64,000 nt of DNA from Isurus oxyrinchus (Eukaryota), in NCBI GenBank assembly GCA_026770705.1, contig JANJGN010000018.1:59396001-59460000 (forward strand), given 5' to 3'. Position 1 is the stretch's first letter. Each line of letters opens with the position of its first letter. Below are positions 7,930 through 64,000 of the stretch, piece by piece. Under the pieces are notes generated by a model. It worked only from the letters and a program-made list of their open reading frames with translations, did not search any database and was not told where the DNA came from. The position numbers were made by a program, and so were the translations under genes.

Positions 7930-8470
7930 CATAACTGTTTGAAATCCACTGGTACAATTGTCAAATCAATTATTCATTCTCTGCAATTATGCTAGCACAA
8001 AGAACATTNNNNNNNNNNNNNNNNNNNNNNNNNNNNNNNNNNNNNNNNNNNNNNNNNNNNNNNNNNNNNNNNNNNNNNNNNNNNNNNNNNNNNNNNNNNN
8101 NNNNNNNNNNNNNNNNNNNNNNNNNNNNNNNNNNNNNNNNNNNNNNNNNNNNNNNNNNNNNNNNNNNNNNNNNNNNNNNNACAGTGACTGGCCAGGAATC
8201 GGAAGCGTCTGTCATAGGGCAGTGAGAGCATTTTGTGGGAAATGCTATTTATTTTAAATGCTCCACCTGCTGGGAGCTGGGGTTAGTCAGCGGAGCTGAG
8301 ATGAATTGGGAGACGGGGTGTAAAAGAAATAATGTGCCTCTGACAGGCTTGGTGGCTTTTAAGTTGCTCTCATTCAGCCACTTCACAAAAAAAGATTTTT
8401 TTATTCCATCTTTCAGTGATGACATGATTGCTTTTGGTAATCATTTACCATTCTGGTTTTATTTTTTTTC
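7930..8470. promoter_or_regulatory. Candidate conserved ARX enhancer in the POLA1 last intron
   Basis: Non-repetitive, non-coding block around the gap, in the intron known to carry ARX ultraconserved enhancers. The identity is not verified. Confidence 0.45.
8009..8180. other. Assembly gap (172 N)
   Basis: Run of N. Confidence 1.
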
Positions 8471-15932: not shown

Positions 15933-16065
15933 ATCGATATAGATGCATGTAGATTACACAAATGAAGGTTTGCCCTTTTATAATAGTTTAAAGCGAGCAT
16001 TTTTTAAGTTGCTACATAAATGATATTAAATGTCAAATAATTTAACCTATTGTACTTGAGTTGTT

Positions 16066-16227
16066 ATAAAAACAGACGGTGTTGAAGATGCTCAGTAGGT
16101 CTGGCAGCACCTGTGGAGAGAGAAACAGACTTAATGTTTTGAGTCAGATATGACTCTGCTTTGGAATTATTCTTCTTCTTGTTTTTATTCTTATCTCCAG
16201 CATCCATGGTGTTTTGCTTTTACTTTA
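16066..16227 (-). mobile_element. Decayed Penelope-like short element
   Basis: Same family body (CTCAGTAGGTCTGGCAGCACCTGTGGAGAGAGAAACAG). Stem GAGTC/GACTC is retained but the core is decayed. Flanking direct repeat matches 12/14. Confidence 0.65.
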
Positions 16228-17429
16228 GTACTTGGATTGTTCCCTGACATTGGCTATTACAATAAAGGTAATGGGGTAATTCTGCAGTAGCCAGTGGCTA
16301 AATACTAGCGAATCAATAAAAGGCTGTGCTCATTTGGCTGCCTTACCATTGTAGTGATCTTGCTGATGACATTGAATGTCTTTTCTGATCTCAAAGTGGA
16401 TGGAAATGGGGGCAGCTTACCAGTGTAAAGAATGCACTTCTCTCAGCAATAAAATTCAAATCTTCATATTGAAGACGGGCGTCTGTCAGAATCCAATTGT
16501 CAAAATGGTAGAGCCTCAGTGATCTTGACAATCCAAAGGCACTTTAACCATTGGATTCCTTTTTTTGGCTTTAGTTTATTAATTCTAAGAAATAAGTGTA
16601 GGGCTGAGCAATCAGATAACTTTGGAAAGCTTTCTAGAGATGATACAAGCTTTCATTGTATTATTGAAAGGAAGGTAGGTTATCCTTCATTCACTTCAAT
16701 TTTTTGCATAATTTATCCTGATATTGACAAGTAGATTATGGTACAAACAGGGTTTCCAGTTCTGTACTCAGTGTTCAGTTGCATTTTGGTAGAGAAGTTA
16801 TTAACTGACATTTGTTTATAGTAGATGGAAGAACAATTTTAGAAAGTTCAAGTTGCTTTGCAAAATATACATTCAACGTTTCGCATTTTCTTTACCTGCT
16901 AACTCAATAGGAATATTACTTGACTAGTGATTGAAGCGTTCATTACATTACCTGCAGTGATATTTCTTCTTTGTACAAGATAATTAAGATTATCAGGATG
17001 AGACAGCTATGCTATAATTCCAGAGTAACTGGTGCACAGTTTAATAACTATATGCAGACTGCAGTTGTGATGTTTAGTGACTAGAATCTACCAAGTGGTA
17101 GATATTCATTTCTATTGACTGGTAGCTCTAGCTAAAAAATCTTTCATGGCAGCAAACACTGGAATCACTTTCCTGGGACACTGGTATACTGATGTGCTTA
17201 CAATTTTATATGATTGTAATACTTGCTGATGAACAAGTGGAAAATTATAGCTTGCAGGCCAAATAAAAAGTGTTTTGATTTTCTTTCTTAAAGAATTGAT
17301 CTGAAAAGTCCAATAATACAATACCGTGAACCAGAATATGCAATCACTGTTGCCTCTTGAGCCAATATATCTGTGCTATTGGCCACAATAGCACCACCTT
17401 CAGGATATTATAGGTTTAACTCCTTTTCA

Positions 17430-24302: not shown

Positions 24303-25575
24303 TTTCTTTTCATCCATGGGATGTGGGCATCATTAGCAAGGCCCGCATTAATTGCCCTAAAGAAGGTGCTGGGACTGAAATGATTGGCCCCCAACTATCA
24401 TAGCCATCTTCCATTGTGATGGACACAACTCCTGCCAGGGGGGACTTTCCTCCCTGATTCCCAATGGCTTTGTTTACCAGGGCTTCTAGATGTCAGATTC
24501 GAAGTTCTGCTTTGGTATTAATGGTCATCACTGCCATCTTAATCCTGAATTCAGCTCCATGTTTGGACCAAGGCAGTAATGAGGCCTGAAGCTGAGTGAC
24601 CCTGGAGAAATTCAAAATGAGCAGGTTATTGATGGGTTAGTGCCACTTGATAACAATGTTAATGACATCTTCACTCTGCTAATAATTGAGAGTAGATTGA
24701 TGGGGCAAATTGGAATTGTCTTCCCTGCTGGAGACGGGATATACTGGGTGATTTCCCCACCTTGTCAGATAGATGCCTGTGCTGTAACTATATTGGAACA
24801 GTTTGGCTAGGGATGTAGCTGTTCAGGAGTATAAAGTTTTCAGCTCTGCACCCTGATATTGTCAGGACATTGCTGTCATACAGTGCACTCAGTCATTTCT
24901 TGATATCACATGGAGTGAATCAATCTGGCCGAAGACTGGCTCCTGTGATAGTGGAAACTTAGGAAGAGGAAAAGATACACTTGGTACTTCTGGCTGAAAG
25001 TGGTTGCAAATGCTTCAGTCTTGTGTTTTGAACTCTCACGCTGACCTCCACCATCATTAGGGATGGGCATGTTCATGGAGCCTACCCCTCCCATTATTTG
25101 TTTATTTGCCCACTGCCATTCGTGATTGGATGTTTCAAGGCTTCAGAGCTTTGATCTGATCCATTGGTTGTGAGATCACTTTGCAGTCTATCACACACTG
25201 CTCCCACTGTTTAACATGCGTGCAACCCTGTATTGTGGCTTCACCAGGTTGGCATCTCATTTTTAGGCATGCCTGGTGCTGCTTCTGGCATGCTGTTCTA
25301 CACACCTCATTCAGCTATGGTTGATCCCCAGGCTTGATGGCAATGATAGAGCAAGGAATATGTCAAGCCGTGAGGTTGCAAATTGTGGTGTAATGCAACT
25401 CTATTGTCTCTGATAGCCTATAGTGTTTCATGGATATCCAGTTTTGAGCTGCTATGCCTGTTCTAAATCTATCCCATTTAAGTGCTAGTGCCACACAACA
25501 TGGGAGGTATGCTGAGTGCGAATATACTTTGTCTCCATGAGGACTCTACAGTGTTCACTCTTATCAATACAGTTA
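24303..25575 (-). mobile_element. Decayed, internally deleted LINE of the same family
   Basis: Tail remnant at 24303-24370. The body (KTEAFATTFSQK) is homologous in reverse orientation to 27600-28500. Confidence 0.75.
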
Positions 25576-26969: not shown

Positions 26970-29010
26970 GATAATGAAGCGAGTAAAAATAAAACCGGAC
27001 AGACCACCAGGCATCAGCCGAGCTACCGGAAACAACAGTTACATACTGCCCAGCCACCCTTCAAAGTCCTCACTATCATCTCTGGGGATTTGTGCCAGAT
27101 TAGGGAGAGCTGTCTTCAACTATTGAAGCAACAGTCTGTTACAGTCATACTCACTATATCATTCCTTACAGTCAATGCCCCAGATTCTTTCACCAGGGCA
27201 GACACACCAAGGGTGGTAGCACAGTGGTATACAGTCAGGAGGGAATAAACCTGAGAGTGTCCAACATTCAATCCGAACCCCATGAAATCTCATGGTACCA
27301 GATCAAACGTGTACCTGCTGATTACCAGCTACTGCCTTTCCTCACCTGCTGAATCAATGCTCCTTCATGTTCAACACCACTTAAAAAAAGCATTGAGGGT
27401 AGCAATGGCACAATATATTTTGGATAGGGAACTTCAGTGTCCATCCCCAAGGCTGAGTCTTGAAGGACATACCATACCTGGAACTGTGACACGTGGTGAG
27501 AAAACCAACAAGAGGGAAAAACATATTTGACCTCATGCTCAGCAATTGACCTGTCACAGATGCATCTGTCTATGACAGAATTGGTAGGTCCTTGTGGAGA
27601 CAAAGTCCTGTGTTCATATTCAGGGCATCCTCCATCATGCTGTGTGGCACCACCACTGCACTAAATAGGACAGACATGGAACAGACCTAGCAGCTCAAAA
27701 CTGGGCATCCATGGGCTGCTGTGGCCTATCAGCAGCAGCAGAATTGTATTTAATGACAATATGTAATCTCATGGCTTGGTATTTCCCTCTCTCTATCATT
27801 ACCATAAACCAAGTGATCAAAGCTCTGCAGTCCTGCCACGTCCAGTCATAAATGGTGGACAATTGAACAACTAATGGAGGAGGTGCTTCACAAAATCCCC
27901 ATCCTCATTGAGGCCAGACCCCAACATCTCCATGCAAAAGACAAGGCTGAAGCTTTTGCAACCATCTTCAGACAGAAATGCCAAGTGGATGATCCAACTT
28001 GTCCTCTTCCTGACCTCCCCAGGATCACAGATGAGAGTCTTCAGCCAATTCAATTCACTTCATTTAATATCAAGAAATGACTGAAGACATTGGATACAGC
28101 AAAGGCTAGGGGCCCTGACAACACCCCAGCTGTAGTGCTGAAGATTTATGTTCCAGAGTTAGAAACTCCCCTAGCTAAGCTGTTCCTGTACAGCTACAGC
28201 ACTGGCATCCAGTTGACAATGTGGAATATTGCAGGTATGTACCGTTCACATAAAGCAGGATATATCAAATCCAGCCAATTACTGTCCCATCAGTCTAATC
28301 TCACTCATCAGCAAAGCAATGGAAGGTGTCATTGACAGTGCTAGCAAGTGGCAATAAACTATCATCATTGCTCAGTTTGGGTTCTGCCAGGGCCACTTGG
28401 CTCCTGACCTTATTACAGCCCTGGTCCAAACATGGACAAAAGAGGTGAGAGTGACTATCCCTGACATCGCGGCAGCATTTGACCAACTCTGGCGCCAGGG
28501 AGCCCTAGCAAGATTGAAGCCAGTGGAAATCAAGGGAAACTCTTCACTGGTCAAAGTCATACTTAGCACAAAAGAAGATGGTTGTGGTTGATGGAGTCCA
28601 AATTCTCAGCTCTAGGACATTACCCTGAGGAACTCCAAGGCCTAACCATCTTAAGCTGGGGCGATCATCATTGACCAGAAGCTAATCTGGTCCAGCCATA
28701 TAAACGACACATTTACAAGAGCAGGGCAGATGCTATAATTTATAACCAGTGATTCACCTTTGGCAATCTCTCAAGTCTTCTTCACTATCTTCAAAATTCA
28801 AGTTAATACTTGTCACTCACCTGACAACTACAACCATATCCAGGTCAGAGCATTCAACTCTATCATTGCCCCTGCTATATGATTCAATGTGATAATTTGG
28901 CATCACTTACACACTAGCTGCAACGTATGCTGTGTGCAAGAAAAATTGCAACAACTCGGCTTACTTTGATAGCATCTCCCAGCCAGGCAACATATGCCAT
29001 CAAGAAGGAG
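26970..29010 (+). mobile_element. Decayed LINE (RTE-X-like), endonuclease-RT remnants
   Basis: Frameshifted fragments KARGPDNTPAVVLKIYVPELETPLAKLF, APDLITALVQTW, DIAAAFDQLW. Confidence 0.85.
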
Positions 29011-32886: not shown

Positions 32887-33352
32887 GTGTATATAAATCT
32901 GAAGGCTCCAAGCTTGTTCCTTGGTCACTGAACTAACTGGTCTCTGTTGGCATGCTACAATTGACCAATGAATCTCTGGCATTAGCGAGGAGTCAAATCA
33001 GTCGGTTCCTACCCTGGTGGCTCTCTGATCACTCCTGGTAGAAATTATGTGTGTGTGACAGATGAAGAACACACAGACTGCAGGCAACAATGGATCCCAA
33101 TGTACCCCAAAAAATTGGCATCTTTACAAAAGGAAAGAAAAATAAAGGGCGGGGGGGACGAGAAGGTAAGTGTTAAAAGGAAATTCAAAGGCAGTGTCAG
33201 CCTCTGAAGATATTTCTGATTTTTGTCTATCAAGATGCATCCACAGACCTTTTCCTTAGGCAAATTTAAAATAATTACTCTGCAGCTTCTAAAGAAGAAA
33301 CACAAGGTGAGAGAATCTGCACTGGAGCTTTGGGCTGCATTAGAGTGCTTCA

Positions 33353-33479
33353 AAAACAGAAAATGCTTGAAAAACTCAGCAGGTCTGACAGTGTCTGTGG
33401 AGGGAGAAACAGAGTTAACGTTTCGAGTCCGTATGACCCTTCTTCAGAGCTGAAGAAAAGTAGAAATGTGAATTATGTA
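33353..33479 (-). mobile_element. Short Penelope-like insertion with hammerhead motif and perfect 15-bp TSD
   Basis: Flanked by CATTAGAGTGCTTCA at 33338-33352 and 33480-33494. Minus strand reads CTGAAGA-A-GGGTC-atacg-GACTC-GAAA-CGTT. Confidence 0.75.
33413..33451 (-). ncRNA. Minimal type I hammerhead ribozyme motif
   Basis: agct CUGAAGA A GGGUC/GACUC (stem II) GAAA CGUU aacu. Canonical core, palindromic ACGU helix III, one mismatch in stem I. Confidence 0.6.
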
Positions 33480-34121
33480 CATTAGAGTGCTTCAGTTGGA
33501 GTTTGTCTAGTGTCTTGGTTCCAAATATTGACGGATCCAGAAGCTTTCCCAGCTCTGACCTAAGTGGATGTTGTCAGCCTGGCCTGAAGTCCTCAGTGGG
33601 GCCCCCTCTGAGGCTTGTATGCATAAGGAACCCTTCTCAACCATATTAACAGATAAAGGCGGGGTGGGGGGGGGGGGAGGCTTATCCATGCCATTCGCAC
33701 CTATGAAGTGTTCACAAGGAATTCATTGAAATGGACTTCTCTTGCTACTCAGAAGCAACAAATATTGGTAGCTGGTTTTATATCCGCAATAAAGTAAAAG
33801 ATAGGAGAGCAAAAAAGCTGTTTTCGGAATAGATTTTCAGAAATTTAAAAAAAACTCCACAGAAGAACTGGCCAAGAATCAAAGTTATATAAATATTTAC
33901 CAGCAAAAAAGAATGTGGGACCCTAAAGTGTGGACCTCCCCATTTGAAAACTGAAAGATGTTCCTAATACCAGTTGAAAAATGAAGGCTTTACATGGCAT
34001 GAAACCTAACTTTCTTCTTCCATGCATCCATTTAAGGTGACTGACTATTTCTAAGAAAAGGTAGGAAATAGGTCCTCACAGATTAGTTGAGTCTACAGAC
34101 AATGTGCCGACTGTACTCTGA

Positions 34122-34342
34122 AATAAAATCAGAAAATGCTGCAAATACTCATCAGGCCTGGCAGCATCTGTGGAGATAAAAACAGGGTTAACATTTCAGG
34201 TTGATGACCTTTTTGTCAGGAAGGGCACTTCAGATCAATGACTTTTCATCAAAACAGACATTATTGACCTGAAATGTTAACTCAATTTCTCTCCAGAGAT
34301 ATTGCCAGACCTGCTGAGTATTTCCAGCATGTTCTGTTTTCA
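34122..34342. mobile_element. Inverted pair of older Penelope-like ends
   Basis: AAATGCTGCAAATACTCATCAGGCCTGGCAGCATCTG...GTTAACATTTCAGGT is the approximate reverse complement of ACCTGAAATGTTAAC...TGCCAGACCTGCTGAGTATTTCCAGCAT. Confidence 0.7.
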
Positions 34343-34450
34343 AAACAAAAACAGAATTACCTGGAAAAACTCAGCAGGTCTGGCAGCATCGGCGGAGAAG
34401 AAAAGAGTTGACGTTTCGAGTCCTCATGACCCTTCGACAGAACTTGAAGA
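34343..34450 (-). mobile_element. Short Penelope-like insertion with hammerhead motif, inserted at the end of an older copy
   Basis: 14-bp TSD with one mismatch (ATGTTCTGTTTTCA 34329-34342 / ATGTTTTGTTTTCA 34451-34464). Confidence 0.7.
34406..34444 (-). ncRNA. Minimal hammerhead ribozyme motif (variant core)
   Basis: AGUU CUGUCGA A GGGUC-augag-GACUC GAAA C GUC AACU. Perfect 4-bp stem I and a GUC triplet, but core A6 is U. Confidence 0.55.
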
Positions 34451-34539
34451 ATGTTTTGTTTTCACTTTGTTCCTCTGACTGACTTACCTTCTGTCCATTC
34501 ATCCAGAAAAACCTTCAGCCTTTTGAGTCATATTGACTT

Positions 34540-37965: not shown

Positions 37966-40229
37966 AATCTGTGGAATCAGTTGCGCGTAACAAACCCGCT
38001 GATACCTGGCTCCGAGTTTAAAAAATTCACCATCCAGCAATTGAGAAAATGGTATCTAATTAACATGAGATGAAACAAGTTTGCCCACCCAGAAAATAGT
38101 CGAACCAGAAGCACTCAGGCACTTTTTCATGAAGGACCCTGGCCAACTGATGCCATCACCTGAACTGCAATGAGAACTGCTCCTCAGGATTCAAGGCCAA
38201 TCCTTCGCTGTACACCACATTGCCGAGAAAAAGACCACTAGACCAGACCGATCAATCAAGTCTGTTTTAAATATAATGGCATAACCTAGGACCGTGCCAC
38301 ATAAATAAATTAGAATACTGTTATTACATAACGTAAGAAGAATACTGGAAAGGATTCCCAAGCATGGGGTCTTTGGTGCCGTCCTGAAGGAAACCATGTA
38401 ACTATCACCTCCGTCCCTCACCAATATTGTACCATACACAACTGTAGAATGAATATATTTAGCAGTTTAATTTGCAATATCCACTATTTTACTTTTGTCT
38501 GTGAATTTACATCACGTTGACGATAATGATGAGTGAACCTGTACCTATGCGCCCTAATTGGGTGTACTAAAACATTGAACAACTGCAACTTTTAGTCAGA
38601 ATACAAGCCACGCATCCAATTAGGCTCCGAAAAGCATCTCTGCCCAATCTTACACACTCTAATACAAGATGCATTATTCTCGCAAGCAATTTGGTTGCAT
38701 GGTCCTCGCCTGGATTTACTGATTGTGTATGCTTTCTGTATGGAACCTAATAAGCATAAAAATGAAAGGAAACAGTTCCTGCTGAAAATCTGAAATCAAA
38801 CAGCAAATCTAGGTGATATACAGCAGCATCTGCAAAGTGGAAAGATGGGTTAACGATTTTCCATGTGTTAATCTGCCTTTTCTGTCTGTATTTCCAACAT
38901 TTTATATTTGTATTATTTTACATATAAAAGATTAGCATAAATAATTCACAACATGTGGAAGGGATGGCAGGGAACAGTTCCTAATGATGCGTTTACGCTC
39001 CAAAATCATACATAAATACTCGCAGAATCAGTCGGAAATTTCTGAATTATGTCCAACTTGCAGTGTATTTCCATGACTAGGTGCCGTAGGACATCGCTTT
39101 GTGTCATTTATCCCATTTCATGTGGGATAAATAGCTTTAAATCACAGCAGCCGTTTGAAAACACGTTTATTGGAATTTACCAGATTAACTCATCTCTCCG
39201 ATTCAAATTTCAAGTCTGAATTCCTTCAGCAATAAAGCATTATAAAGTTGCGGGAGGCTGTTTTCAAACCTGGTTGAATACCAGTGGTTTTGCATTAATT
39301 TACTACTAAGCTAATAAGTAGGTTTCGTTTTGTTATGCTAAGCTTTATTGCTTTCTTTTATCGGAATAGTGTTTTCACCAAAGCGCAGACAAGGCATTCT
39401 TTGATGAGGGAATTAGTGCTCTATTATTCCCCTATTATTCATAGCACACTAGAATATGTAAGTACCTGAGGGTGTAAAAGGAGAACAGAGTCTATTGCAA
39501 AGTGTTCGGCTTGTTTCTTTGTACAGCTGAGTATGAGATGATAAACCGCTTAATACACCGCACTAATTGGATGAGAGCAAAGAGATGGGAATTAGTGGAT
39601 CCGAAGGAGATCGTGCTACCAGTTTCCAATGCAGCTTTCTTCCGTCTTTCTTTCACAACTTCAACAGCTCCAAAGGCGGCAGAACCTCCCCACCACCACC
39701 CCCCCCCCCCCCCCCCACCCCAGCCAACCCTTCTAAAAGACTGTGTGTTTTGTATAGAATTATGCGCGTTAAACAGCCCTGGGTTAAATGGAACACGCAT
39801 ACTGGATATTTGGCATTTTAATAGACTATACTACAAAATTAACCGGAGGTTTCAAATATATTTATTGTGTTTCGTCTAATGGTAAGAATAGAAAGATGCA
39901 AAACAAGACAACACTTAAATGCGTTTTCACTAAACGTACATTATTCATACATGATTTCATTAAGGCATACAATATATTATGCCTCCATATGTTAAACTTT
40001 AATATGTTGTTTTTTTAAGAGATCTGAGTATATAAAATTAACTTGTATCTGAATCATATATTCCTTTTCACATTAACCATACAATTTCTACATGTTTACA
40101 TATATACAACAGTATTTCTACCTATATACATGCATGCAAATGTACACATGTTTATATAGACGACTTGTCACGCTCCTTGAAATATCTCCAAATCTGAAAG
40201 CTGGTTTTGGGAACAGATGGTGGGAAGCT

Positions 40230-43919: not shown

Positions 43920-44157
43920 TCAGCACACTTCCTTGCCGGTGGAGGGTGCGGGAAGGATGTTGAGTTGTGTGAGTTGGGCGGCATGTTCCTTGGCTTTGAG
44001 TCTGAGTGCTGCGATACTGGACGCTCGTCTGTCTGCTGCTGCTACCGCGGGGTCTGAGAGGGCGCCGGCTTGCACTCCCCCTTCTGCCCCCGGGGCCGAC
44101 TGTCTCAGCAGGGCAGGGCCAGAGGCGCCTGTCAGCGGAGCTACTGTCGAGAAGAGC
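43920..44157 (-). CDS. ARX: ARX coding exon 5 (238 nt, OAR/aristaless domain)
   Basis: Acceptor TGCAG|G. Encodes LFSTVAPL...[38 protein letters not shown]. The five exons total 1362 nt, i.e. 453 aa plus stop. Confidence 0.97.
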
Positions 44158-44760
44158 CTGCAACAGACAAGGATTTTCGACATTATAATAAGGGAAAGCG
44201 TTTTAAATCAAAAAATGATCGGCTGATTTGGTGACGGGTGGGATACTACTGAATATGAAGGCTGCATTGTTCAGGAAAATATTGACCTGCGCAATGCGTC
44301 AAGTAGCGCAGGACTCACATCTTATCAGACTTGCACATTACAGGCCTGACTATATAATTCATTATGATGTAGGAGAAAGCAGGGCTGGTTACAGATGTGG
44401 TAAAGAATTTGCCTTTAAAGTATCAGTTCATCGCCAGAATTTGACTATTGTCAATCTGTAAGTTATGCGTGTGATGAAGTTGGACTATTACTAAGATTAG
44501 TATAGCAGGGATATGGAATCACAACTGCACAGGAAAATTACTTGGGCAGCTACAGTTAGTGTTGTCTGAACTCTGGGGGTTCACGTTGATAACCCGTCAC
44601 AGTCCCAGCTAGCCTTATCACTTTTTTAAATGATCTGCTAGAATGGAATCACTTTAGGCTCCAGTCTATGATATAGAATTGCTCACATCCCATGGTGGCT
44701 GCAGTAACGACAAGAAAAGTTCATTCAGGAGACAGAATTCTATGATTCTAATAATCGAAT

Positions 44761-44875
44761 AGAAACGTTAACTCTCTTTCTCTCACCACAGATGCTGCCA
44801 GACCTGCTGAGCATTTCCAGCAAGTTTGCTTTTTATTTCAGATTTCCAGCATCCTCAGTATTTTCTTTTGTATTA
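44761..44875 (+). mobile_element. Penelope-like short element in ARX intron 4
   Basis: GAAACGTTAACTCTCTTTCTCTCACCACAGATGCTGCCAGACCTGCTGAGCATTTCCAGC, same family, truncated within the ribozyme motif. Confidence 0.7.
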
Positions 44876-47800
44876 AAGTCTAATTCACTGTTATTTCTCT
44901 TCCAGGACTGCCCATCTTCAATGATACACTCGGTATTTGGCACAGCAGCAATGTGCTAGCACATGATGCAATGGCCCAAGCCATCTTTCAGCGAGGGTTC
45001 TGAAATGCTAACCCTTTTCACATTAGTGAGCTGGCTGATGTATCACAACTTTGGACCACACACTTTCTTAAATGATCTCAAGTTGTTGTTAGGTTACTCT
45101 ACGAATTAGCCAGCGGCAACCATGACCTCATCCATAAGCATTGCGGAGGGAACAATACACTGTGAAATTAGTCGTATGTTTTGCCTATGTAAATATACTG
45201 ACATTGATTTCTCGTATTTTGAGTGCTAAAAGATACACTTCGTGTTCGTTCCTCCTGAAAGCGAACCAACAAATCAATTATTTTGCCCTGTCGTCGCCTG
45301 ATAGATACAAAACTTGGGGCAACTTTCAACACACACAGCTCATATTCTTCCATCTTGATTGAAATAATTAGTGCTTTATATTTCACACCTAAATGATTTA
45401 TTAAAACCAGATAAACTACTTTAAGCTTGAATAATAGAAAATGACTTTTTAACAAAATCAAGAATAACATGCGGGATTTGTAAAGTTACTTTGGTGATCA
45501 TTTCCGATAGATTTACCACCGTCAGTCCCCTCCCTTGAAACGTGCGTTTATTTGTGACTTCCCTCAACTAGTATAACATTGGATTTGGGATGGTTAAAAT
45601 ATCGAAGCATTTATCACATCCCAGCTCTCCTATCACAACAAAGGGCACGTGGGTGATGAGAAACCATGAGGTTTGCTATAAAACAGGATTATAAGCACAC
45701 ACAATCATGCATGTAAGCATGATTTGATGTCCACCATGTTGCTGCTGAAACTCCGTACCTCTCAAGTGCTGGAGCCAATGGTGTCTCTCAATGCTACAGT
45801 CAATAGGCTGCACACCATGCCTGCTGGAGTCGAGCTGCTGTCCACCTAATAGAAGCTTAAACAAAGGTTTGGCCAACTCTGAATAGGGCATGGTAAGGAA
45901 TTGGCAGAATTTCACTGAAGTTGTGTTGATTGCATGTCCGCACTTCTGGAGAGGGAAATTGGAACGCAGTCACTCCTCTGTGGCAGATTTGGTAATCCAA
46001 TACTCAGGCCAGCCAGGTCCACTGTTGTCCTTTGTTAATGTTAACTGTTAATGATCCAAAGGCCGAACTTGCTCATTAACGGAGTCTTCAGGAGTTGACT
46101 GTCACCGTGGATTGGGATTGGTACCACTAGGATACTACTAAGTAATGTAGATTTAGGTAGTAAACTCCTATGCACCTTGGGGTTACCAAAGTCCTAAATT
46201 CTTTAGATTTAATTGTGAGGGGTCCTGAAGTGGAGAGAATATCCACTCCATATTAGGCTTGAAAACAATTAGGCATGCCAGATTCCTGCCTGGCCAAAAA
46301 CAGTTTGAAAATCCCAAATAGTGCGGTGTGGAACAGTCGTGCACCTGAGCAGTTGGGCACGGGGGTACGGTGCAGGGTAAACTACACACGAGAACTGGGT
46401 GTAAGAATAAACCTTTCAAGCATTACATACATATCTTGTACAGTAAGTAGTGGAATATACGGAATCTTGGATTCGTGTGCATCGTTGTGAAATCACTTTT
46501 CTCTTCATGTTCTACATTTCCTGTGTCCCATACAAGCTGCAGCGGATTTGTGTGGTTTTCCAAATGATCCGACTGATATTAAATTATGTCACACTGATTA
46601 TGCCACACATTTCACAGAGATTTCAGGTGACCTTGCCAAATAATTTTCATGTCAGGGTAAGCGACCAAATGATCACCTTTGAAAGATAAAATATATATAG
46701 TTGGGATGATCGAATTGTTAAATTGGCCTTGCTTCGTTTTTTCTCCTACTCCTGGTCCGTCCATTGTTACCCTATTGCCACTTTCAGTTTCACTTTACAA
46801 TAATTAATAACGAATAAATATTCCAAATTTCTTCATTTTGCTAAATCCGATCTTGTTCAAAAGCAAAATATAGCGCTGATAAGGTGGGTGACCAAAGTCA
46901 CAATCTAATCTCGGTCTTGCACTGTCAATCAATGAAAAAAGCTACCTTCGAATATTTTAAATCTAGACTGCGAGAATATTGCTGCAAAGGATAGAATTTA
47001 TAAATGCTGTGATACAGAACGTCTTGTTCAAAGCCTGTCCTTGACTGTGTTAAGTAACACATAAGCTGTACAGCAACAGTAGTTTCCAATAAAAAATTGG
47101 TCTGGTCCGGTCTATTCCTAAGCTTTGCTTTCCATTTGAGAAATCCCTCCAGAGATATTGGGACATGAGGTAAACTGCATTCTTGGTGCCTGGGGCCCGT
47201 GTGGAGTTCTGCACGCATTCCCTCGCATAGGTAGATGTGGGACTCGCAATAATTGTTGCGGTTTCTTGCCGTAGCCCTTGTCCTTCAGTTTGTCATGAAT
47301 CATTGGGAGGTCTTAGTTACTGTATCTCGGACATTTGAAAATGGGCTGGACTCCTCTCCTCTCTCGCACACACACTGCTCGCAGCTGCTCAAGTGTTTTC
47401 GTGGTTTGTTATAAAATATTTCTACTCTCATGGATGCTGCTGTTAGTAAGCGATTGTTTAATGTGCTGTTTTGGATACTGGACTTGTTGCTTTTAAATAT
47501 GGTTGTGTGCAGCGGATTTCGAAGACTATTGCCTGTCGCTAGCTTTGATACATTTCGTGCGAGATTAGTCGTGACACCGATTGATATGTTTTTCCTATTA
47601 TCTTGCTGACTTTTAACATTTTAGGGTATATTACTATTGATATTCTAAAACAAGGTTACCATTGACTTTGTCTATTCTGTTTACTTTTGGTTTGTAGCTT
47701 GTTCTTTCCCAGTTGAGTTTTAGCTGCTGATTATGAACGAATTGCCTTTTTTTCTCTCTCTCTCTCTCCCTTGTTCACTGCGCCTGATGACTGAGTGATT

Positions 47801-47926
47801 CTGGTTCACTTGGTACTCCTTGTCCTTGTGGCTGCTGTTGTTGCTCCTGGAGGGGGCGGGGGATGGGGAGGGGAATGTTTGGGGGGGGGGGGTGGTTGCG
47901 GGAGGGGCTCTGATTGAAGCTCTTAC

Positions 47927-48258
47927 CTGCCGAAGTGCGGAGTAATGAAAGGATGTCTGAACATGGCCGCTCCCAGGAAGGTGCCGAGGCCTAGCGGGGC
48001 CCCGCTGGGGGGAAGAGCAGCGGTGCCTGGTGGAGGTGGGAGCCCGGGGAAGGCGGCAGCTGCGGCTGCTGCTGCGGCGGCGGCGGCTGACCAGGCGGAC
48101 TCCAGGCTCGGGTGGTGTCCGAAGGGACTGCCGTCCAGGTAAGGTCCCAGCGGGTGGCCCGCTCCCAAGGGGCTGGCGAACGGCAGGCCGCCTGGGTGGC
48201 TCTGAGCTCCGGCTTTCTCTCGCTTTCGCCACTTAGCTCTGCGGTTCTGAAACCAAAC
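47927..48258 (-). CDS. ARX: ARX coding exon 4 (332 nt)
   Basis: Acceptor TGCAG|GTT. Encodes [15 protein letters not shown] (paired-like Q50 helix 3), a poly-Ala tract and [13 protein letters not shown]. Donor AG|GTAAG. Confidence 0.97.
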
Positions 48259-49719
48259 CTGCAAAAAGATAATATTAAGTTCAACATTTCAAAAAAAAAA
48301 CTGAAACAAAGGTACAGAGAACAGGAAATGTGAAATCACTTTAAGGTTACATCCAACAAAGCAAATGACACTGAAGGTTAATGTACACAAACAAATTATA
48401 AAATTGAAGTCCAGCAATTATTTTAACGAAATTGACTTTAAAACAGTTCGCTCATTCACAACTCGCTAATTTCATTGTAGCGTTGCTATCACTTCCAAAT
48501 AGAAACGTAACAAAAAGTGTATCTTAAAACTAGGTATCAGCATTCTGGAATAATTAGAAACATTTCAATGTGTCGTGAGACACAAACCCCATTGCACATA
48601 TTCACTCCACACATATTGATTCAGGCATCCTTGTACAGACTCCTGACTTTTTCCACAGGAACATCGAATACATTATGAATACAAATAGTGAAGCGATCAA
48701 ATATTGGATTAGAAAAAAGATATAAACACATCAAACATCCCTCGTCAATTCTGAGATAATGTACCCGTACAGCACGAGGTTGCAGATTTTAGTAATCGAG
48801 TTGCCCCATTAAAAAGGTAAGCGATTCTTTCTTCACAGCTCATGTCATCGTTATTAAATTGGCCTTAATTAATACATTGGTTGTACTTCATAGATTAAAT
48901 AAAGAGAAGTGAAGTCAAAATAAAAATGATGCGTTACAATTAATTTTACTAGGAACGTCTCCTAAGTTTTATTGAGTCCAAACGAGCTTTTGTAAAGAAG
49001 GGGGAATAAAAGTTATTTAACTTTCCCACGACTGCTTGAGCGGAAAATAATCATTCCTGGCTGCCTGTCACGTTGCGTATTTGACAATAGAACAATGTGT
49101 CAACAGAACGAGGGAGAATCTCATCATTAGCCCCTTTAATGCAAGAAGCTGTTGTGTATTAAATGAGCCATATGGAATTTATTAGGTCTTATCAGCGCTC
49201 GATTGTAACTGTAAAGTGATTTACTCGGCCTTTACCTCCCAACATATGTTTTATGTTCCTTGTGCTCGCAATAAGGCACCAATCATAATGTTTATCGTCG
49301 CTTTGGTTATGAGGACTTCGAGAGAAAATGTGGGCCCTATCAACTTTAACAGCACTTCACTTCTGCACCCTTACATTACATTCTCTGAAAGCGAAGGAAA
49401 TTAAATCTTATGTTACTGTTTTAATGCTTTCGGTTGCCGTGGTGCAAAAGCATTTCCATTATTCATATTTGCGCAGTCACATCTGTAGAAAGTCTGACAT
49501 CGATCAATATATTGTACCTGGCACAATCAGACAGGGTTAGGATTGCATAGCCGGGACTTTCTGCCCGCATACTTTATTATTAATAATAAGGTCGATATTA
49601 ACTAATGGAAAGAGAAAGAACCCCTACAATTTGACACGAAAACATCCATGTAACATGTAACCATCGATGGAAGAACGAGGCTGAGAACCATCTATCCACA
49701 CGTACTAGTTGCAACTTAC

Positions 49720-49765
49720 TTGTACTCGTGCTTCTGTTAAATCTAGCCGCATCGCTAGTTCCTCC
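49720..49765 (-). CDS. ARX: ARX coding exon 3 (46 nt, homeodomain)
   Basis: Acceptor TGCAG|G, reads (R)EELAMRLDLTEARVQ, donor CAA|GTAAGT. Phases join exons 2 and 4 in frame. Confidence 0.96.
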
Positions 49766-50760
49766 CTGCACAAAACACAGAACGAAGTGAAAATACAGTT
49801 CACACACTCCCATGCCTCGCAGTAGCTCTTTTTGGAAAGCTAATACTGGATATCAGCAGCAGGAAATATGAAGCGTTCTAAATGAGGATTAGACATAACC
49901 TAGCAGCTATTTACGGGCGCTCTTCAATCTTTCCTGTTTACATGGGCCATAAAATAGGCTAGACCAAGTATGCAAACATCGGGCAAGTCAAGCGGCTCAT
50001 ATCCGACATTGTCAAAAATGCAAGAACTGTTACAACCACTAGAATATGTCATTATTTGATTTAGGAAAACGCAATTTTCAATATCAAAAGGAAACGATTT
50101 ATAAATCTGGGAAGTATATTGCACTGCAAATTCACTTAAAGTGGCCAAAACGATTACATATGCTAATGATTATTTCCCCCCACTTTTATCCATAACTCAC
50201 CTGATAACAGAAAAGACAATTTTTAAAAATGTAAGCCCCATTGTTCCACTTGTACCGTGTCCTGGAGTGGCTTTGAAAACAATTCGGTGCACATCCGTTT
50301 ACTGTCAGTCACTGGACTGAGTGTGTGTCAGCGGGAATCAGAAAGGCTTCTAATGCGCACACGGACTTTGAGAGCTTAGAGTTTCACGCACCGCATTCTC
50401 TTCAAATGAGAAAGATCGAAGGGCTTATGTTTTGAAATGTGTGGGGTGAAGCACTATGCAAAAACTGGGCTGCCGGGTGGGGAACACTGGGTGGCGAGCG
50501 CCCGATGTTAATCTGGGCGGCCATTGCGTTGATAGCGGGGGCACTGGCGAGTGGAGAACTGGAGAAGTTATCAGCCTCCGATAGATTGTGTGCCGCATGT
50601 CCCTATCATTTGTCCCTTTGCAGTGGTTACGGACAACACATAGCAGCGAGTCTGAATCGAGTTAGAAGCGATTACAGGCTTATCGCTGTACCAATTACCT
50701 TTTCATCTGGGAGTTTTGTTTTTCTGAGTTTTGTTAGAGTTCTTTAATGTTTATACATAC

Positions 50761-51319
50761 CTGGTGAAGACATCTGGGTAGTGTGTTTTCTGAAAAGCTC
50801 TCTCTAGTTCTTCCAGCTGGTAGCTGGTGAATGTAGTCCTATATCGCCGCTGTTTTCTTTTTAACATGCCTTCTTCTGAGTCACTGCCGGCTGATAAACA
50901 CAGGCTGTCCTCCCCATCCTTCACATCCACGTCCGTCTGGGCCTCCTCTACAAGCTTAGAGGACAAGTCATCTTCAACCGCGTCCTCTTTGGCGTCTCCC
51001 TCGAACGACTTGTCGGTGGGCTCCACCGAACCTAATTCTGGAGACTGGGACAAGTTGGGCGCGCTGTCTCCGTGCGTTTTGCCCAAGCTGAAGTTTTCTT
51101 TGTAGGATTTACTGCGGCTGATGCTGACTTGCGGAGCCTGGCTGATCTTTAGATCGGTGTTTCGGAACGGCTCGGAGGATCTGTCTCTTTCCAATTTCTC
51201 GTTACCAATCTCGTTAAATCCCCGGGGGTCTAAGATTTTACCTCCCAGACCGTACAGTCTTCGGAATTTAGGAGGGAGATGGAGTTCAGAGTCAAAAGAC
51301 ATGTTTTCCTTGGGCGATC
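50761..51319 (-). CDS. ARX: ARX coding exon 2 (559 nt)
   Basis: Acceptor TAG|GA, donor AG|GTATG. Encodes [27 protein letters not shown], an acidic region and the homeodomain start [34 protein letters not shown]. Confidence 0.97.
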
Positions 51320-52761
51320 CTATGTACAAAAGCACAAGAACTCATAAATCAGCCATTTAGAGGGAACTCAAAATCACCCTCTCACAAAGACTATTTACTC
51401 ATTAGCTACACTTTACATCGTTTCATGAAATTCTACATCGTGCAGGCTCATTGCTGGAACACGCCCGATTTATCCGCCAGGCAAAGTCATAAACTAGAGC
51501 AAAATGTCGGTAGAGACTTTCGAAAGTCCTGCATTTACTGTAGTCTCAGAGTCTGGGGATAACCAATAGTTTATGTATTGAATTAATGCAAGTTGTCCCT
51601 CCCCCAGCCACCCGACACTGTCTTCATCCATAAAGCAGAGCAGATCACCAGAACAGGCCGCGAGAATCGGGGCTTTAGTGGCAGCAGGGGAAGTTTCTAT
51701 TCTGTGTCCAGGATAATAACACTCCTGAAAGAACCAACTTTAAAGAAATGATCAGTTCATTTTAGGAGATTGGCCTGTGTTGTTTGGAAGGAACTCTTAC
51801 TTCACGCGGTAACTGAAATTCAAATACCCTGCATGATGTATACTTGAGTAACCCATCCAAACTCTGCAGAGAACCGCATCAGATCTCCGTCGTACTTTCC
51901 AGTTAGAAAAGCAGTTATGCCGGAACATCCTCATTTCAAAGTAGCGAATATCCCTAATGTCTGCAGACTGTAAACCATTTATTCCCATTTGCAGCTAATA
52001 CGACGCCCATTAAGAAAGTTATTTTGAGACATCCTTTGATTTTACTGTAAATATGGAATGGGGATTGAAAATTCACCGCCCTCCACCATTTGCATTCTGT
52101 CAGAAACACAAACTTTAACCTACTTTCCTTCTCAAAATCTTAACTGAACAAAACTTGATTTCACTGAATCAATCAACTGTTAGTTTAATTCAAAATCAAG
52201 TTTTTAAAAAAAAATCCCACAGATCTCCTAAATGTTTCCCCCAAGTCCCTCTCCATTGAGGTAAGGAGGGAAGAGGTGAAAAGTTCCTTTTCCGAGCTCA
52301 TTTCACTCGAAGGCGCAATGGGATGTTTGGTGTGTTTATCGACGGCATATTTGGAAAGTAACCAATCGCAAACACGCCATCTCTATTCAATCATTTTAAA
52401 TAAAATAACATCAAACAATTGTTCTGCATGAATCGATAATAAATTCAACATTTCCTGCAGTAGTTAGGTATCCCTAGCCTGAGCTAGAAAGTATTCCCAC
52501 TATTTCAAAATTTACCCAAGTGTTTGAGACACATTTTAAACAGTATACGTTCTTCAAACAATACTGTGCAGAGTTGCAAACCAGACACCGATGCTTTGCA
52601 CACTGGAATTGTAGTGCCAACACTTCTGGCTCTTGGCAGAAAAGTACGAAATTAGTTTTTTTTGCTTAAAAGTGCACTGGATCTTCGGTGCTATAATCCA
52701 GTGAAGTTTTCCACCCTACCCTGTTAGTGGGGGGGGGGGGCGGGGTGGGTTAGCTCCTTAC

Positions 52762-52948
52762 CTTCACTGGCTGTGTCCGGCTCATTCCTAGCTGTGAGAA
52801 GCGGCAATGCTTGGGCTCCAATACATCTGATCTTGCAAGGGCTCCTCCGGCCCAGAATACTGTCGATGCAGTAAGAGGAGAGCAAAGTTGGAGATTTACT
52901 TTTGCACTCGGATCTCTCGCAAATCTCCTCCTTGTATTGAGTTGTCAT
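52762..52948 (-). CDS. ARX: Aristaless-related homeobox, coding exon 1 (187 nt)
   Basis: ATG in good context (gaaccATGa). Encodes [39 protein letters not shown]..., including the octapeptide/eh1 motif SYCIDSILG. Donor AG|GTAAG, phase 1. Confidence 0.96.
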
Positions 52949-53140
52949 GGTTCGAGCCTGAGTTCTGGGTTGTCGGAGGCTACGATTCCCCCACTTGTAC
53001 AGCAATCGCTCTTGCTCTGATCGAGGCACTAATGACATTTGTATTGGGCTGTAATTGCTTTCCTCTCGATTCTCCAATACACGTGCTGAAACCTCTGTGA
53101 TTGGCTCAGGGAGGTCTGGGGAGCCTCTTTTTTTTACATT
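52949..53140 (-). promoter_or_regulatory. ARX 5' UTR / proximal promoter
   Basis: Two minus-strand CCAAT motifs (ATTGG on + near 53043 and 53100) and a TAAT site directly upstream of exon 1. The TSS cannot be determined from sequence. Confidence 0.5.
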
Positions 53141-58439: not shown

Positions 58440-59760
58440 TTTGCATACAACCCGCATATATCTTGCACTTATATAATTCCAGGTTCCTAGAACATACCAA
58501 GGCACCTCACAGGTGTGTTATCAAACAAAAATTGACACCAGCCACACAAGGATACACATTAGGTCAGAGGGGTAGCTTTTAAGGAGGAGAGGTGCAGAAG
58601 TTCAGGGAGCAGAATTTACAGTGGGCACCAAAGCAAAGGTTTAATTTTCTTGATACTTAACTGAAGGAAATGTCTGCTCATGCAATGCTGGACTGGGTTG
58701 AGCAGCATAATAGGAGCGGGGCAGTGGAGGCGCTGAGAGAGGTGTGGTCAGTTCAAGTTTGGTATCATCAGTACAGATGTGGAAGCTAAGGTGGTGTTTT
58801 TGAATGATGTTACTTGGGGGTGCTAAGTAAAATAGAAATAGGAAGGTGGTGGGCAACTGTAGAACCTTGGGAACTCCAGAGGTAATTGTGCAGGAACTGG
58901 AAGAGAAGCCATTGCAGGTCATACTCTGGTTACAGCTGGATAGATAGAAATGGAACTAGACAGGTACAATTCCTGAAGGGTCATATGGACGGGAGCATTA
59001 ACTCTGTTTCTCTCTCCACAGATGCTGTCAGATCTGCTGAGTTTTACCAGCATTTTCTGTTTTTGTTTCAGGTACAATTCCACTCAGCTGGACATGGGGA
59101 GGAGGCATTGGACTAAGAGGGTGTGGTTAACCATATCAAAGGCTACAGAAGGATTTACCAGGGTCATGGTCACACATTTGTGATGTTTCAGTGCTTTGGC
59201 AGTGGCAGAAACCGAATTGGAGGGATTCAAACATGGAGTTCCAGGAAAGATAGGCATGGCTTTGGGAGGCAGCAAACTATTCAAGGACTTTGCAGAGAAA
59301 ATGAAGTTTGACGAGTAGGTGATAGTTTGAAAGAACTGAAGGTCAAAGGTGTGTATTTTTGAGGAGAGGGTTGATGATGACTACAGTCTTGTTGGGGAGG
59401 AGGACAGTACCTGAGGGCAAAGAAACATTAACGATATCAGTTAACATGGGGCCAAGAAGGGATGTTGGGTGGTTGGGAGATGGGTCTCACAGACAAGATG
59501 AATTTGGAGAGGGCAAGAAGGGAGATAGGAAGGAACCTAGAGGAAGATGGGCTAGGTTTAGGGGAGTCTCAGAGGAAGCTTGGCCTGGTGGGTTAGGGAT
59601 AGTTAGAAGAGCAGTAGAAGCAGTGAATGAATGGTCTCAACCTTAGTGACAAAGATCTGCATGAACTCTTAGCACTTGTTGGAAGTGATGGTGGCAAGGG
59701 CAGGGGCAATAGGGTTAAGAAAAAGATTTATAGTGGAGAAGAGAAGTTGGGGCTCATTGT
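58440..59760 (-). mobile_element. L2 LINE fragment
   Basis: ITSGVPKVLQ, HICTDDTKL (decayed YADD) and SVAFDMVNHTLL remnants. Confidence 0.75.
58974..59068 (+). mobile_element. Short Penelope-like insertion into an L2 fragment, perfect 13-bp TSD
   Basis: CAGGTACAATTCC at 58961-58973 and 59069-59081. The body matches the 33353 family and starts inside a decayed hammerhead core. Confidence 0.75.
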
Positions 59761-62973: not shown

Positions 62974-64000
62974 TTTTTTTATTCATTCATGGGGTGTGGG
63001 ATTCGCTGGCTAGGCCAGCATTTATTGCCCATCCCTAATTGCCCTTGAGAAGGTGGTGGTGAGCTGCCTTCTTGAACCGCTGCAGTCCGTGTGGAGTAGG
63101 TACACCCACAGTGCTGTTAGGAAGGGAGTACTAGAATTTTGACCCAGTGACGGTGAAGGAATGGCAATATATTTCCAAGTCAGGATGGTGAGTGGCTTGG
63201 AGGGGAACTTCCAACTGGTGGTATTCCCATCTATCTGTTGACCTTGTCCTTCTAGATGGTAATGGTTCGTGGGTTTGGAAGGTGCTGTCAAAGGAGTCTT
63301 GATGATTTCCTGCAGTAAATCTTGCAGATGGTGCACACCGCTGCTACTGTGTGTCGGTGGTAGAGGGAGTGAATGTTTGTGGATGTGGTGCCAATCAAGC
63401 GAGCTGCTTTGTCCTGGAGAGTGTCAAACTTTTTGAGTGTTGTGGGAGCTGCACTCATCCAGGTAAGTGGGGAGTATTCCATCACACGCCTGACTTGTAC
63501 CTTGTAGATGGTGGACAGGCTTTGTGTGACTTCACTGACGGGGTAGTCAGGAGGTGAGTTACTCATCGCAGGATTCCTAGCCTCTAGCCTGCCCTTGTAG
63601 CCACAGTAGTTATATGGCTAGTCCAGTTCAGTTTCTGGTCAATGGTAACCCCCAGGATGTTGATAGTGGGGGACTCAGTGATGGTAATGCCATTGAACAT
63701 CAAGGGGTGATGGTTGGATTCTCTCCTGCTGGTGTTGGTCATTGCTTGACACTTGTGTGGTGTGAATGTTACTTGCCATTTGTCAGCCCAAGCCTGGATA
63801 TTGTCCAGGTTTGCTGCATTTGGACATGGATTGCTTCAGTATCTGAGGAGTCATGAATGATGCTGAACATTGTGCAATCATCAACAAACATCCCCACTTC
63901 TGACCTTATGATGGAAGGAAGGTTATTGATGAAGCAGCAGAAGATGGCTGGGCCGAGGATACGACCCTGAGGAACTCCTGCAGTGATCTCCTGGAGCTGA
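62974..64000 (-). mobile_element. Non-LTR retrotransposon 3' part (RTE-X-like), runs off the window
   Basis: RT C-terminal remnants (STIYKVQVRRVMEYSPLTWMSAAPTTLKKFDTLQDKAARLI) and a 3' UTR ending ATGAATGAATAAAAAAA. The clade assignment is inference. Confidence 0.85.

What the first reader, a model, noticed from the sequence alone, without database searches (positions are those of the whole stretch)
33338..33494. 127-bp retro-insertion with a minimal hammerhead ribozyme and a perfect 15-bp TSD
Seen: a perfect direct repeat CATTAGAGTGCTTCA brackets the insert. Its minus strand reads CUGAAGA-A-[GGGUC/GACUC]-GAAA-CGUU, with a short stem I (agcu/aacu) and a palindromic ACGU helix III. Known: minimal type I hammerheads with a short palindromic helix III are characteristic of Penelope-like element repeats and are thought to cleave as dimers; an extra A after A9 has a precedent in the CChMVd(+) viroid hammerhead. 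Inference: this is either a non-autonomous ribozyme-bearing retroelement or an extremely 5'-truncated Penelope copy.
Basis: partly seen in the sequence, partly recalled or inferred. Interest (0 to 1): 0.75.

Follow-up and report, generated by a model that had tools for sequence, protein, structure and literature searches.

The report
Truncated Penelope-end hammerhead insert, shark
A 127-base insert flanked by a 15-base duplication carries the already described minimal hammerhead motif and is a slice of a very abundant repeat, likely the truncated end of a Penelope-like jumping gene in what is likely a shark genome, so it is real but ordinary.

Summary
There is an exact 15-bp direct repeat (33338-33352, 33480-33494), a 127-bp insert, and a minus-strand motif that fits the 2014 minimal-hammerhead consensus (0 of 300 shuffles). 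The extra A and the CGUU end are the norm in that class, not oddities.

The insert is not a self-contained element. Seven related copies sit in this window, and 70,179-111,579 contigs per run were laid on the 1.6-kb stretch holding it and three sister copies. The family runs on past both ends of the insert. Copies share 3' ends, vary at 5' ends, and some carry a roughly 30-nt tail or a fold-back arm. Three sisters have 13-14-bp duplications. This is the described anatomy of 5'-truncated Penelope-like insertions.

The RT/GIY-YIG partner could not be retrieved, so membership is inferred. Stem II covariation is present but not above shuffles. The insertion is likely old (probably shared with a related organism about 2.5% diverged), and this copy is predicted to misfold. 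The scan noted such shark elements before on other DNA. Verdict: new member of a known kind, low interest.

The parts
33338..33352 (+). Left copy of the 15-bp direct repeat (inferred target-site duplication); its last 1-2 letters also fit the element's 3' continuation
33353..33479 (-). 127-bp insert: internal slice of an abundant repeat family, element sense on the minus strand (5' end at 33479, 3' end at 33353)
33480..33494 (+). Right copy of the 15-bp direct repeat
33448..33451 (-). Stem I 5' arm (AGCU); 3 of 4 pairs with AACU, C.A mismatch at the second pair
33441..33447 (-). Hammerhead core C3-A9 (CUGAAGA)
33440..33440 (-). Extra A between A9 and G10.1, typical of Penelope min-HHRs
33425..33439 (-). 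Stem II GGGUC/GACUC (5 bp, one G.U) with a 5-nt loop
33418..33424 (-). GAAA plus palindromic ACGU (A15.1 at 33421 to U16.1 at 33418); helix III possible only between two motifs
33416..33417 (-). Predicted cleavage site after GUU (between 33417 and 33416), mid-insert: 63 nt upstream, 64 nt downstream
   Evidence: position by the numbering
33413..33416 (-). Stem I 3' arm (AACU)
33353..33412 (-). 3' segment shared by the window copies, ending at the short (tail-less) 3' end
33436..33461 (-). Predicted competing 11-bp hairpin (33461-33451 with 33446-33436) that would bury the catalytic core
58961..59081 (+). Sister copy (95 bp, 88% identical) with an exact 13-bp direct repeat, 5' end inside the core
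34329..34464 (-). Sister copy (108 bp, 83%) with a 14-bp direct repeat (1 mismatch), nested in the end of another copy; core reads CUGUCGA
16052..16241 (-). Sister copy (80%) with an inverted tail-bearing arm and a 14-bp direct repeat (2 mismatches)
34110..34340 (.). Fold-back pair of a second subfamily (stem II closed by A-U)
44762..44872 (+). Sister copy starting at GAAA and carrying the roughly 30-nt 3' tail

Best explanation
The insert is a 127-bp slice of a very abundant repeat that carries a minimal type I hammerhead motif, and it is likely the 5'-truncated end (pseudo-LTR) of a Penelope-like retroelement that was likely pasted in by target-primed reverse transcription. Shown: the direct repeat, the motif, the family's continuation past both ends, shared 3' and variable 5' ends, the optional tail, and fold-back sisters. 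Inferred: a GIY-YIG endonuclease made staggered nicks about 15 bp apart. The RT then started at the inner of two start sites, perhaps helped by 1-2 bases of microhomology, and copied an RNA that was not cut at the hammerhead, since the copy spans the cleavage site. It stopped after 127 nt, and repair left the duplication. In the parent element the motif would cleave only as a dimer through the ACGU palindrome, or with protein help, as reported for other Penelope min-HHRs. This lone, decayed copy has no partner motif in tandem, its core is predicted to be trapped in a hairpin, and it is likely inert.
For: The motif matches the published consensus CUGANGAH G..C GAAA N-palindrome NU H feature by feature; solo motifs from truncated PLEs were reported as the usual case. 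Loose ends: 108 contigs in X4 continue behind 33471 with one sequence (agreement 0.69), and 223-489 contigs per row run on before 33351/33352 with a partly shared tail (agreement 0.42-0.45). Seven other window copies are 77-88% identical. Their 3' ends cluster within about 10 nt, and two copies carry a further roughly 30-nt tail, like the optional 30-40-bp tail of PLEs. 5' ends differ, and fold-back arms occur at 16 kb and 34.1-34.3 kb. Three sisters have 13-14-bp direct repeats. Uncleaved RNA is the dominant insertion template for the anole Poseidon element. Stem II: 30 of 35 cells paired, 2 of 5 pairs with double changes, far above slid controls. The family is exonised in predicted Carcharodon and Heterodontus proteins.
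Against: No RT or GIY-YIG sequence was linked to this family. No genome is held; 5 of 5 collection scans gave 0 hits; 228 window ORFs gave only homeodomain, OAR and two RVT_1 hits 30 kb away; the 8 proteins found with the family's reading frames show no RT domain. Stem II covariation is not above column shuffles (70-473 of 500 shuffles reach the observed values) and reflects about two subfamilies. The duplications (13-15 bp) are longer than the 8-10 bp reported for rotifer Penelopes. No empty site was seen. Nearest-neighbour energies do not favour the double hammerhead (-2.5 versus -17.7 kcal/mol cofold minimum), though they ignore core contacts.
Confidence: 0.76

Rival explanations
1. The insert is a truncated copy of a longer protein-less (non-autonomous) family derived from a Penelope pseudo-LTR and moved in trans by a Penelope RT/endonuclease, SINE- or retrozyme-monomer-like.
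For: No coding partner was retrieved. All eight window copies are non-coding stumps. PLE-derived retrozymes with dispersed monomers are reported in vertebrates, including one chondrichthyan. Putatively non-autonomous elements sharing 3' ends with PLEs are known.
Against: Heavy 5' truncation makes short non-coding stumps expected from an autonomous parent. Only about 20-30 nt beyond the insert could be seen, so the lack of an ORF is untested. An unchecked earlier scan note describes an intact shark PLE with such motifs in both pseudo-LTRs.
Confidence: 0.17
2. The 127-bp insert is itself a complete ribozyme mini-element (a retrozyme-like monomer or circle) that moves as a unit.
For: Clean duplication and an intact-looking motif in the middle of the insert.
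Against: The family continues past both ends. Sister copies have other lengths (95, 108, 162 bp). There is no tandem array here. The motif is the minimal, not the canonical, type. The stretch 33440-33480 has no second copy in the window.
Confidence: 0.03
3. The insert is a solo pseudo-LTR left by recombination between the two ends of a once full-length insertion.
For: It would also leave one end between intact duplications; solo pLTRs are reported.
Against: The 5' ends of the four duplication-flanked copies all differ, one lying inside the hammerhead core. This fits truncation during reverse transcription better than a defined repeat unit.
Confidence: 0.03
4. The hammerhead likeness and the direct repeat are chance.
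For: No Rfam hammerhead match; covariation not above shuffles; 15-bp repeats occur somewhere in 28 of 300 shuffled windows.
Against: 0 of 300 shuffles give the motif with stem I. The repeat sits exactly at the family ends (about 7e-7). A second near-complete motif and five more stem II remnants lie at the same place in sister copies.
Confidence: 0.01

Closest known systems
Minimal hammerheads (min-HHR) of metazoan Penelope-like elements (Cervera & De la Pena 2014, PMC4209133)
   Same: CUGANGA core, extra nucleotide before G10.1, G10.1-C11.1, 5-bp helix II, palindromic 15.2-16.2 with no loop 3, short helix I, GUU site ('C G U U' occurs 15 times in the supplement), mostly found as solo motifs.
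   Different: No shark example in the parts read or in the supplement (0 hits for 'shark' or 'Callorhinchus'); this copy has a C.A mismatch in helix I.
Poseidon of Anolis carolinensis, PAc (Frangieh et al. 2024, PMC11167929)
   Same: Works-like model: two RT start sites giving an optional tail, uncleaved RNA as the insertion template, hammerhead near the element's 3' copied end.
   Different: No sequence link was tested; clade (Poseidon or Neptune) unknown here; protein-assisted cleavage untested here.
EN+ Penelope insertions with inverted pLTR, tail and TSD (Arkhipova et al. 2013, PMC3846280; Craig et al. 2021, PMC8557442)
   Same: 5' truncation, inverted arms, optional 30-40-bp tail, duplications of the target.
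   Different: Duplications here are 13-15 bp versus 8-10 bp in Adineta; no ORF seen.
Animal non-LTR retrozymes (Cervera & De la Pena 2020, PMC7229834; Li et al. 2026, bioRxiv 10.64898/2026.07.22.740005)
   Same: Small, non-coding, type I hammerhead, PLE-related, can occur as dispersed monomers.
   Different: Defined by tandem units of 150-450 bp (2020: canonical motifs). This insert is single, minimal, and a variable-length slice of a longer family.

Membership tests
PLE minimal hammerhead (min-HHR) | Core CUGANGA ... GAAA ... NUH | tested here: met
   consensus
PLE minimal hammerhead (min-HHR) | Unpaired nucleotide between 9 and 10.1, and G10.1-C11.1 | tested here: met
   A at 33440; G33439-C33425
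PLE minimal hammerhead (min-HHR) | Palindromic 15.2-16.2 with no monomeric helix III | tested here: met
   ACGU at 33421-33418
PLE minimal hammerhead (min-HHR) | Short helix I flanking the core | tested here: inconclusive
   3 of 4 pairs in this copy; 4 of 4 in the sister at 34406-34444; family state at 33449 not shown in the cut variant table
PLE minimal hammerhead (min-HHR) | Compensatory changes among genomic copies | tested here: inconclusive
   7 copies: 30 of 35 cells paired, 2 pairs with double changes; above slid controls, not above shuffles. At pair 10.2 about 65% of laid depth in X1 shows A-U instead of G.U (place 33438)
PLE minimal hammerhead (min-HHR) | Self-cleavage as dimer, none as monomer | not testable with these tools
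   needs an in vitro assay; folding energies only
EN+ Penelope-like element | Single ORF with telomerase-like RT and GIY-YIG endonuclease linked to this repeat | tested here: inconclusive
   no genome; no hits in prokaryote, viral or metagenome collections; none in 228 window ORFs near a copy; protein searches gave only exonised pieces
EN+ Penelope-like element | Two pseudo-LTRs flanking the ORF, each with the motif | not testable with these tools
   no long copy available
EN+ Penelope-like element | Variable 5' truncation with shared 3' ends | tested here: met
EN+ Penelope-like element | Optional 30-40-bp 3' tail and inverted 5' arms | tested here: met
   tail in the 44.8-kb copy and the 16-kb inverted arm; fold-backs at 16 kb and 34.1-34.3 kb; absent from the focal copy
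EN+ Penelope-like element | Target-site duplication | tested here: met
   direct repeats on 4 of 7 loci examined, 13-15 bp; not confirmed by an empty site
Non-LTR retrozyme | Tandem units (two or more) each with a hammerhead | tested here: not met
   no array at this locus; tandem arrays elsewhere in the genome untested
Non-LTR retrozyme | Defined monomer of 150-450 bp | tested here: not met
   variable-length slices, family continues past both ends
Non-LTR retrozyme | Circular RNA expression | not testable with these tools
   only contigs were laid

The most novel reading that the evidence does not exclude
These stumps come from a protein-less hammerhead family that hijacks Penelope enzymes and has flooded shark genomes, with 13-15-bp duplications as its signature. 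One highly amplified subfamily carries an altered catalytic core (CUGUCGA, U in place of the conserved A6) behind a perfect stem I and a GUC site. That would be either a new natural core variant or direct genomic proof that hammerhead cleavage is dispensable for Penelope-type spread.
Probability: 0.15. Interest if true: 0.45.

Novelty: new member of a known kind. Interest (0 to 1): 0.17.

Why it matters
By itself it matters little: solo minimal hammerheads from truncated Penelope-like elements were described in 2014 as massively widespread in fish, coelacanth, frog and reptiles. It extends the list to a shark family that I did not find described (Repbase and Dfam could not be searched). The open question it touches is what these ribozymes do for the element. 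Shark genomes hold many subfamilies with differing cores and stems, which would allow a well-powered test of whether catalytic competence tracks amplification. The duplication-bounded copies could also serve as presence/absence markers between shark species.

Tried and rejected
Rfam scan of 33000-33800: 7 matches up to E=10, none a hammerhead. Own genome not held. Degenerate family patterns found 0 matches in metagenome contigs, viral contigs and prokaryote genomes; these collections are not expected to hold shark DNA, so the blanks say nothing on the partner. Pfam scan of the 228 stop-free frames of 62 aa or more (of 550 of 45 aa or more): homeodomain (2), OAR (1), RVT_1 at 63.6-64.0 kb (2), no GIY-YIG. 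Two protein searches with the family's reading frames as queries, longer proteins only, gave 3 and 5 hits, none with an RT domain; the first scored only 8000 candidates. No RNA holder listed; not evidence either way. Empty-site search by contigs was swamped by the repeat (900 joints not shown; no listed piece covers 33461-33564). 'Recent insertion' was rejected as unsupported: organism B contigs run through the left repeat and 27-28 letters into the insert, and the copy departs from the majority of laid contigs at 4 listed places. 'Extra A is a viroid-like oddity' was rejected. Look-ups of earlier findings by sequence or place gave nothing, and one word look-up gave nothing. A paper search for a natural A6U hammerhead listed 2 of 3 papers, neither on this by title and abstract start.

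Full report
Observation. The 15-mer CATTAGAGTGCTTCA occurs exactly twice in the window, at 33338-33352 and 33480-33494, with 127 bp between. A repeat this long within 40-1000 bp appears somewhere in 28 of 300 dinucleotide shuffles. One sitting at both ends of a repeat-family segment has a chance near 7e-7. The minus strand reads AGCU CUGAAGA A GGGUC auacg GACUC GAAA CGUU AACU from 33451 to 33413. My descriptor (core, optional extra base, 4-8-bp stem II, GAAA, paired dinucleotide, UH) found this site alone in the window. It found 1 site in 300 shuffles with no stem I demand and 0 with at least 3 of 4 stem I pairs. Stem I has a C.A mismatch and stem II one G.U. Rfam listed no hammerhead among 7 weak matches.

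Setting. The window holds an Arx-like homeobox gene on the minus strand (the name Arx is my recall from the translation). Its OAR exon lies at about 43.9-44.2 kb, so the insert is some 10 kb downstream. The repeat family is read through as exonised pieces in predicted proteins of Carcharodon carcharias (P0001, E 1.6e-8) and Heterodontus francisci (P0004, E 1.2e-14), so the host is likely a shark.

The insert is a slice of a large family. BLAST of the insert found seven further copies in the window with E below 1e-11. Seven compared over the shared part are 77-88% identical. On the 1.6-kb stretch holding the insert and three of the sisters, 111,579, 82,118, 70,179 and 71,425 contigs were laid in four runs; this is no copy number, but it shows great abundance. 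Loose ends show the family going on at both ends. In X4, 108 contigs continue behind 33471 with one sequence (agreement 0.69). Before 33351/33352, 223-489 contigs per row run on with a partly shared extension (agreement 0.42-0.45); 2613 loose-end rows were not shown. In element sense the window copies end within about 10 nt of each other at the 3' side, except the 44.8-kb copy and the inverted arm of the 16-kb copy, which carry a further tail of about 30 nt. Their 5' ends all differ: 63 nt above the predicted cut site here, inside the core at 59 kb, just above stem I at 34.45 kb, and at GAAA at 44.76 kb. Of 7 loci examined, 4 have flanking direct repeats: 15 bp exact (focal), 13 bp exact (59 kb), 14 bp with 1 mismatch (34.3-34.5 kb) and 14 bp with 2 mismatches (16 kb); 3 have none. 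Fold-back arrangements occur at 16 kb and 34.1-34.3 kb. No tandem array covers the locus.

Age. Contigs of a second organism (B; runs X10, X11) cover 33000-33380/33379 through the left repeat and 27-28 letters into the insert, stopping where organism A's contigs stop. That is under the tool's 31-letter bar for bridging, and no listed piece covers the right junction, so I call the insertion likely shared. B's flanks differ at 7 of about 379 and 17 of 577 letters (about 2.5%). The copy also departs from the majority of laid depth at four listed places (33392, 33393, 33403, 33438; 24 rows not shown). The perfect duplication therefore does not show recency. No empty site appeared among 15 joints shown (900 hidden).

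The ribozyme. Cervera and De la Pena 2014 (PMC4209133; I read parts 1-2 of 4 of the text, part 2 of 3 of the supplement, and passages) define min-HHRs by a nucleotide between 9 and 10.1, G10.1-C11.1, palindromic 15.2-16.2 and short helix I. They report that most occur as single motifs probably from truncated PLEs, with no cleavage as monomers and low cleavage as dimers. CUGAAGAA occurs 18 times and C G U U 15 times in that supplement, so neither the extra A nor the GUU site is unusual; the CChMVd precedent is real (PMC3705267, passages) but beside the point. Across 7 window copies stem II keeps 30 of 35 cells paired. Pair 10.1 is G-C in three and A-U in three, and pair 10.2 takes G.U, A-U and G-C. 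This beats all slid registers but not column shuffles (70-473 of 500), and it reflects about two subfamilies; one row (59 kb) is misaligned by one column in that alignment. So covariation is suggestive only. For this copy, folding puts the core in an 11-bp competing hairpin (33461-33451 with 33446-33436; pair probability about 0.99, stem II about 0.14). The double-hammerhead fold scores -2.5 kcal/mol against a cofold minimum of -17.7; the sister at 34.4 kb scores -11.5 against -18.6. These energies ignore core contacts.

Mechanism. Shown: the repeat, the motif, the slice-like nature, shared 3' and variable 5' ends, the optional tail, fold-backs. Inferred from what is known of endonuclease-bearing PLEs: staggered nicking by a GIY-YIG domain, reverse transcription from the inner of two start sites, early stop, and repair leaving the duplication. 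Frangieh et al. 2024 (PMC11167929; parts 1-2 of 4) show two internal RT starts that define the tail, unprocessed RNA as the main template, and a hammerhead that cleaves only with protein. The insert spans its own cut site, which fits an uncut template. The last 1-2 letters of the left repeat, and 3 letters at the 59-kb copy, also match the family's continuation, which may be priming microhomology. Truncation, inverted arms, tails and 8-10-bp duplications are described in PMC8557442 and PMC3846280 (passages).

What is missing. No RT/GIY-YIG ORF could be tied to this family. No genome is held, five collection scans were blank, 228 window frames gave no GIY-YIG, and protein searches gave only exonised fragments. 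It therefore works like a PLE end and meets the min-HHR features that can be tested, but membership of an autonomous PLE family is inferred (0.76). A longer non-coding PLE-derived master remains possible (0.17). Li et al. 2026 (bioRxiv 10.64898/2026.07.22.740005; parts 1-3 of 5) report PLE-derived retrozymes in one chondrichthyan; its supplementary tables, which I did not see, may list this family. The tandem 150-450-bp unit of non-LTR retrozymes (PMC7229834, passages) is not met here.

Novelty. Searches for Penelope + hammerhead + cartilaginous fish gave 0 papers. Shark + hammerhead ribozyme + Penelope gave 1, where 'shark' refers to the motif's shape (passages). Shark + Penelope + retrotransposon + repeat gave 14 (listing only; passages of PMC4350176). 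Repbase and Dfam could not be searched. Three earlier notes of this scan on other genomes reach the same reading for shark elements; they are unchecked AI notes, not independent evidence. Verdict: real, correctly spotted, a new member of a kind described in 2014; interest 0.17. The one lead worth following is the neighbouring CUGUCGA core.

Noticed in passing
window 34406-34444 (-): Sister copy with a perfect 4-bp stem I, 5-bp stem II and GUC site but core CUGUCGA (U at the conserved A6). Laid depth in bin 34404-34457 (X1: 14.7 million) is above that of both focal bins covering the motif (6.0 and 1.3 million), and no variant is listed at the core (24 rows hidden), so it may be the consensus of an abundant subfamily. 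No such core in the 2014 supplement (3 'CUGU' hits, none a core).
   Followed up: partly
window 34110-34464: Nest of related copies: a fold-back pair with an extra partial stem II segment at its centre (34232-34244), and a further copy inserted into its end with a 14-bp direct repeat.
   Followed up: partly
window 33391-33412 (-) and sister copies: Just after the hammerhead the family has a pyrimidine run, CAG and then ATG, like a splice acceptor and start; the focal copy has ACA in place of ATG (33392-33393). Pieces of the family are exonised in predicted shark proteins P0001 and P0004.
   Followed up: partly
window 43923-53203 (-): Arx-like paired-class homeobox gene with homeodomain and OAR exons.
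   Followed up: no
window 58640-59650: The 59-kb copy appears to sit inside a decayed LINE-like reverse transcriptase remnant (recalled motif likeness in the frames; no Pfam hit).
   Followed up: no
window 63587-63999 (-): Two RVT_1 fragments (E 0.0045 and 5e-7), 30 kb from the insert; class not determined.
   Followed up: no
window 24556-25549 and 27584-28436: Two about 70% identical copies of an 850-bp repeat in inverted orientation; no Pfam hit.
   Followed up: no
window 38780-38807: Isolated fragment matching the family's 3' end and tail start (89% over 28 bp).
   Followed up: no
window 8009-8180: Assembly gap of 172 N.
   Followed up: no
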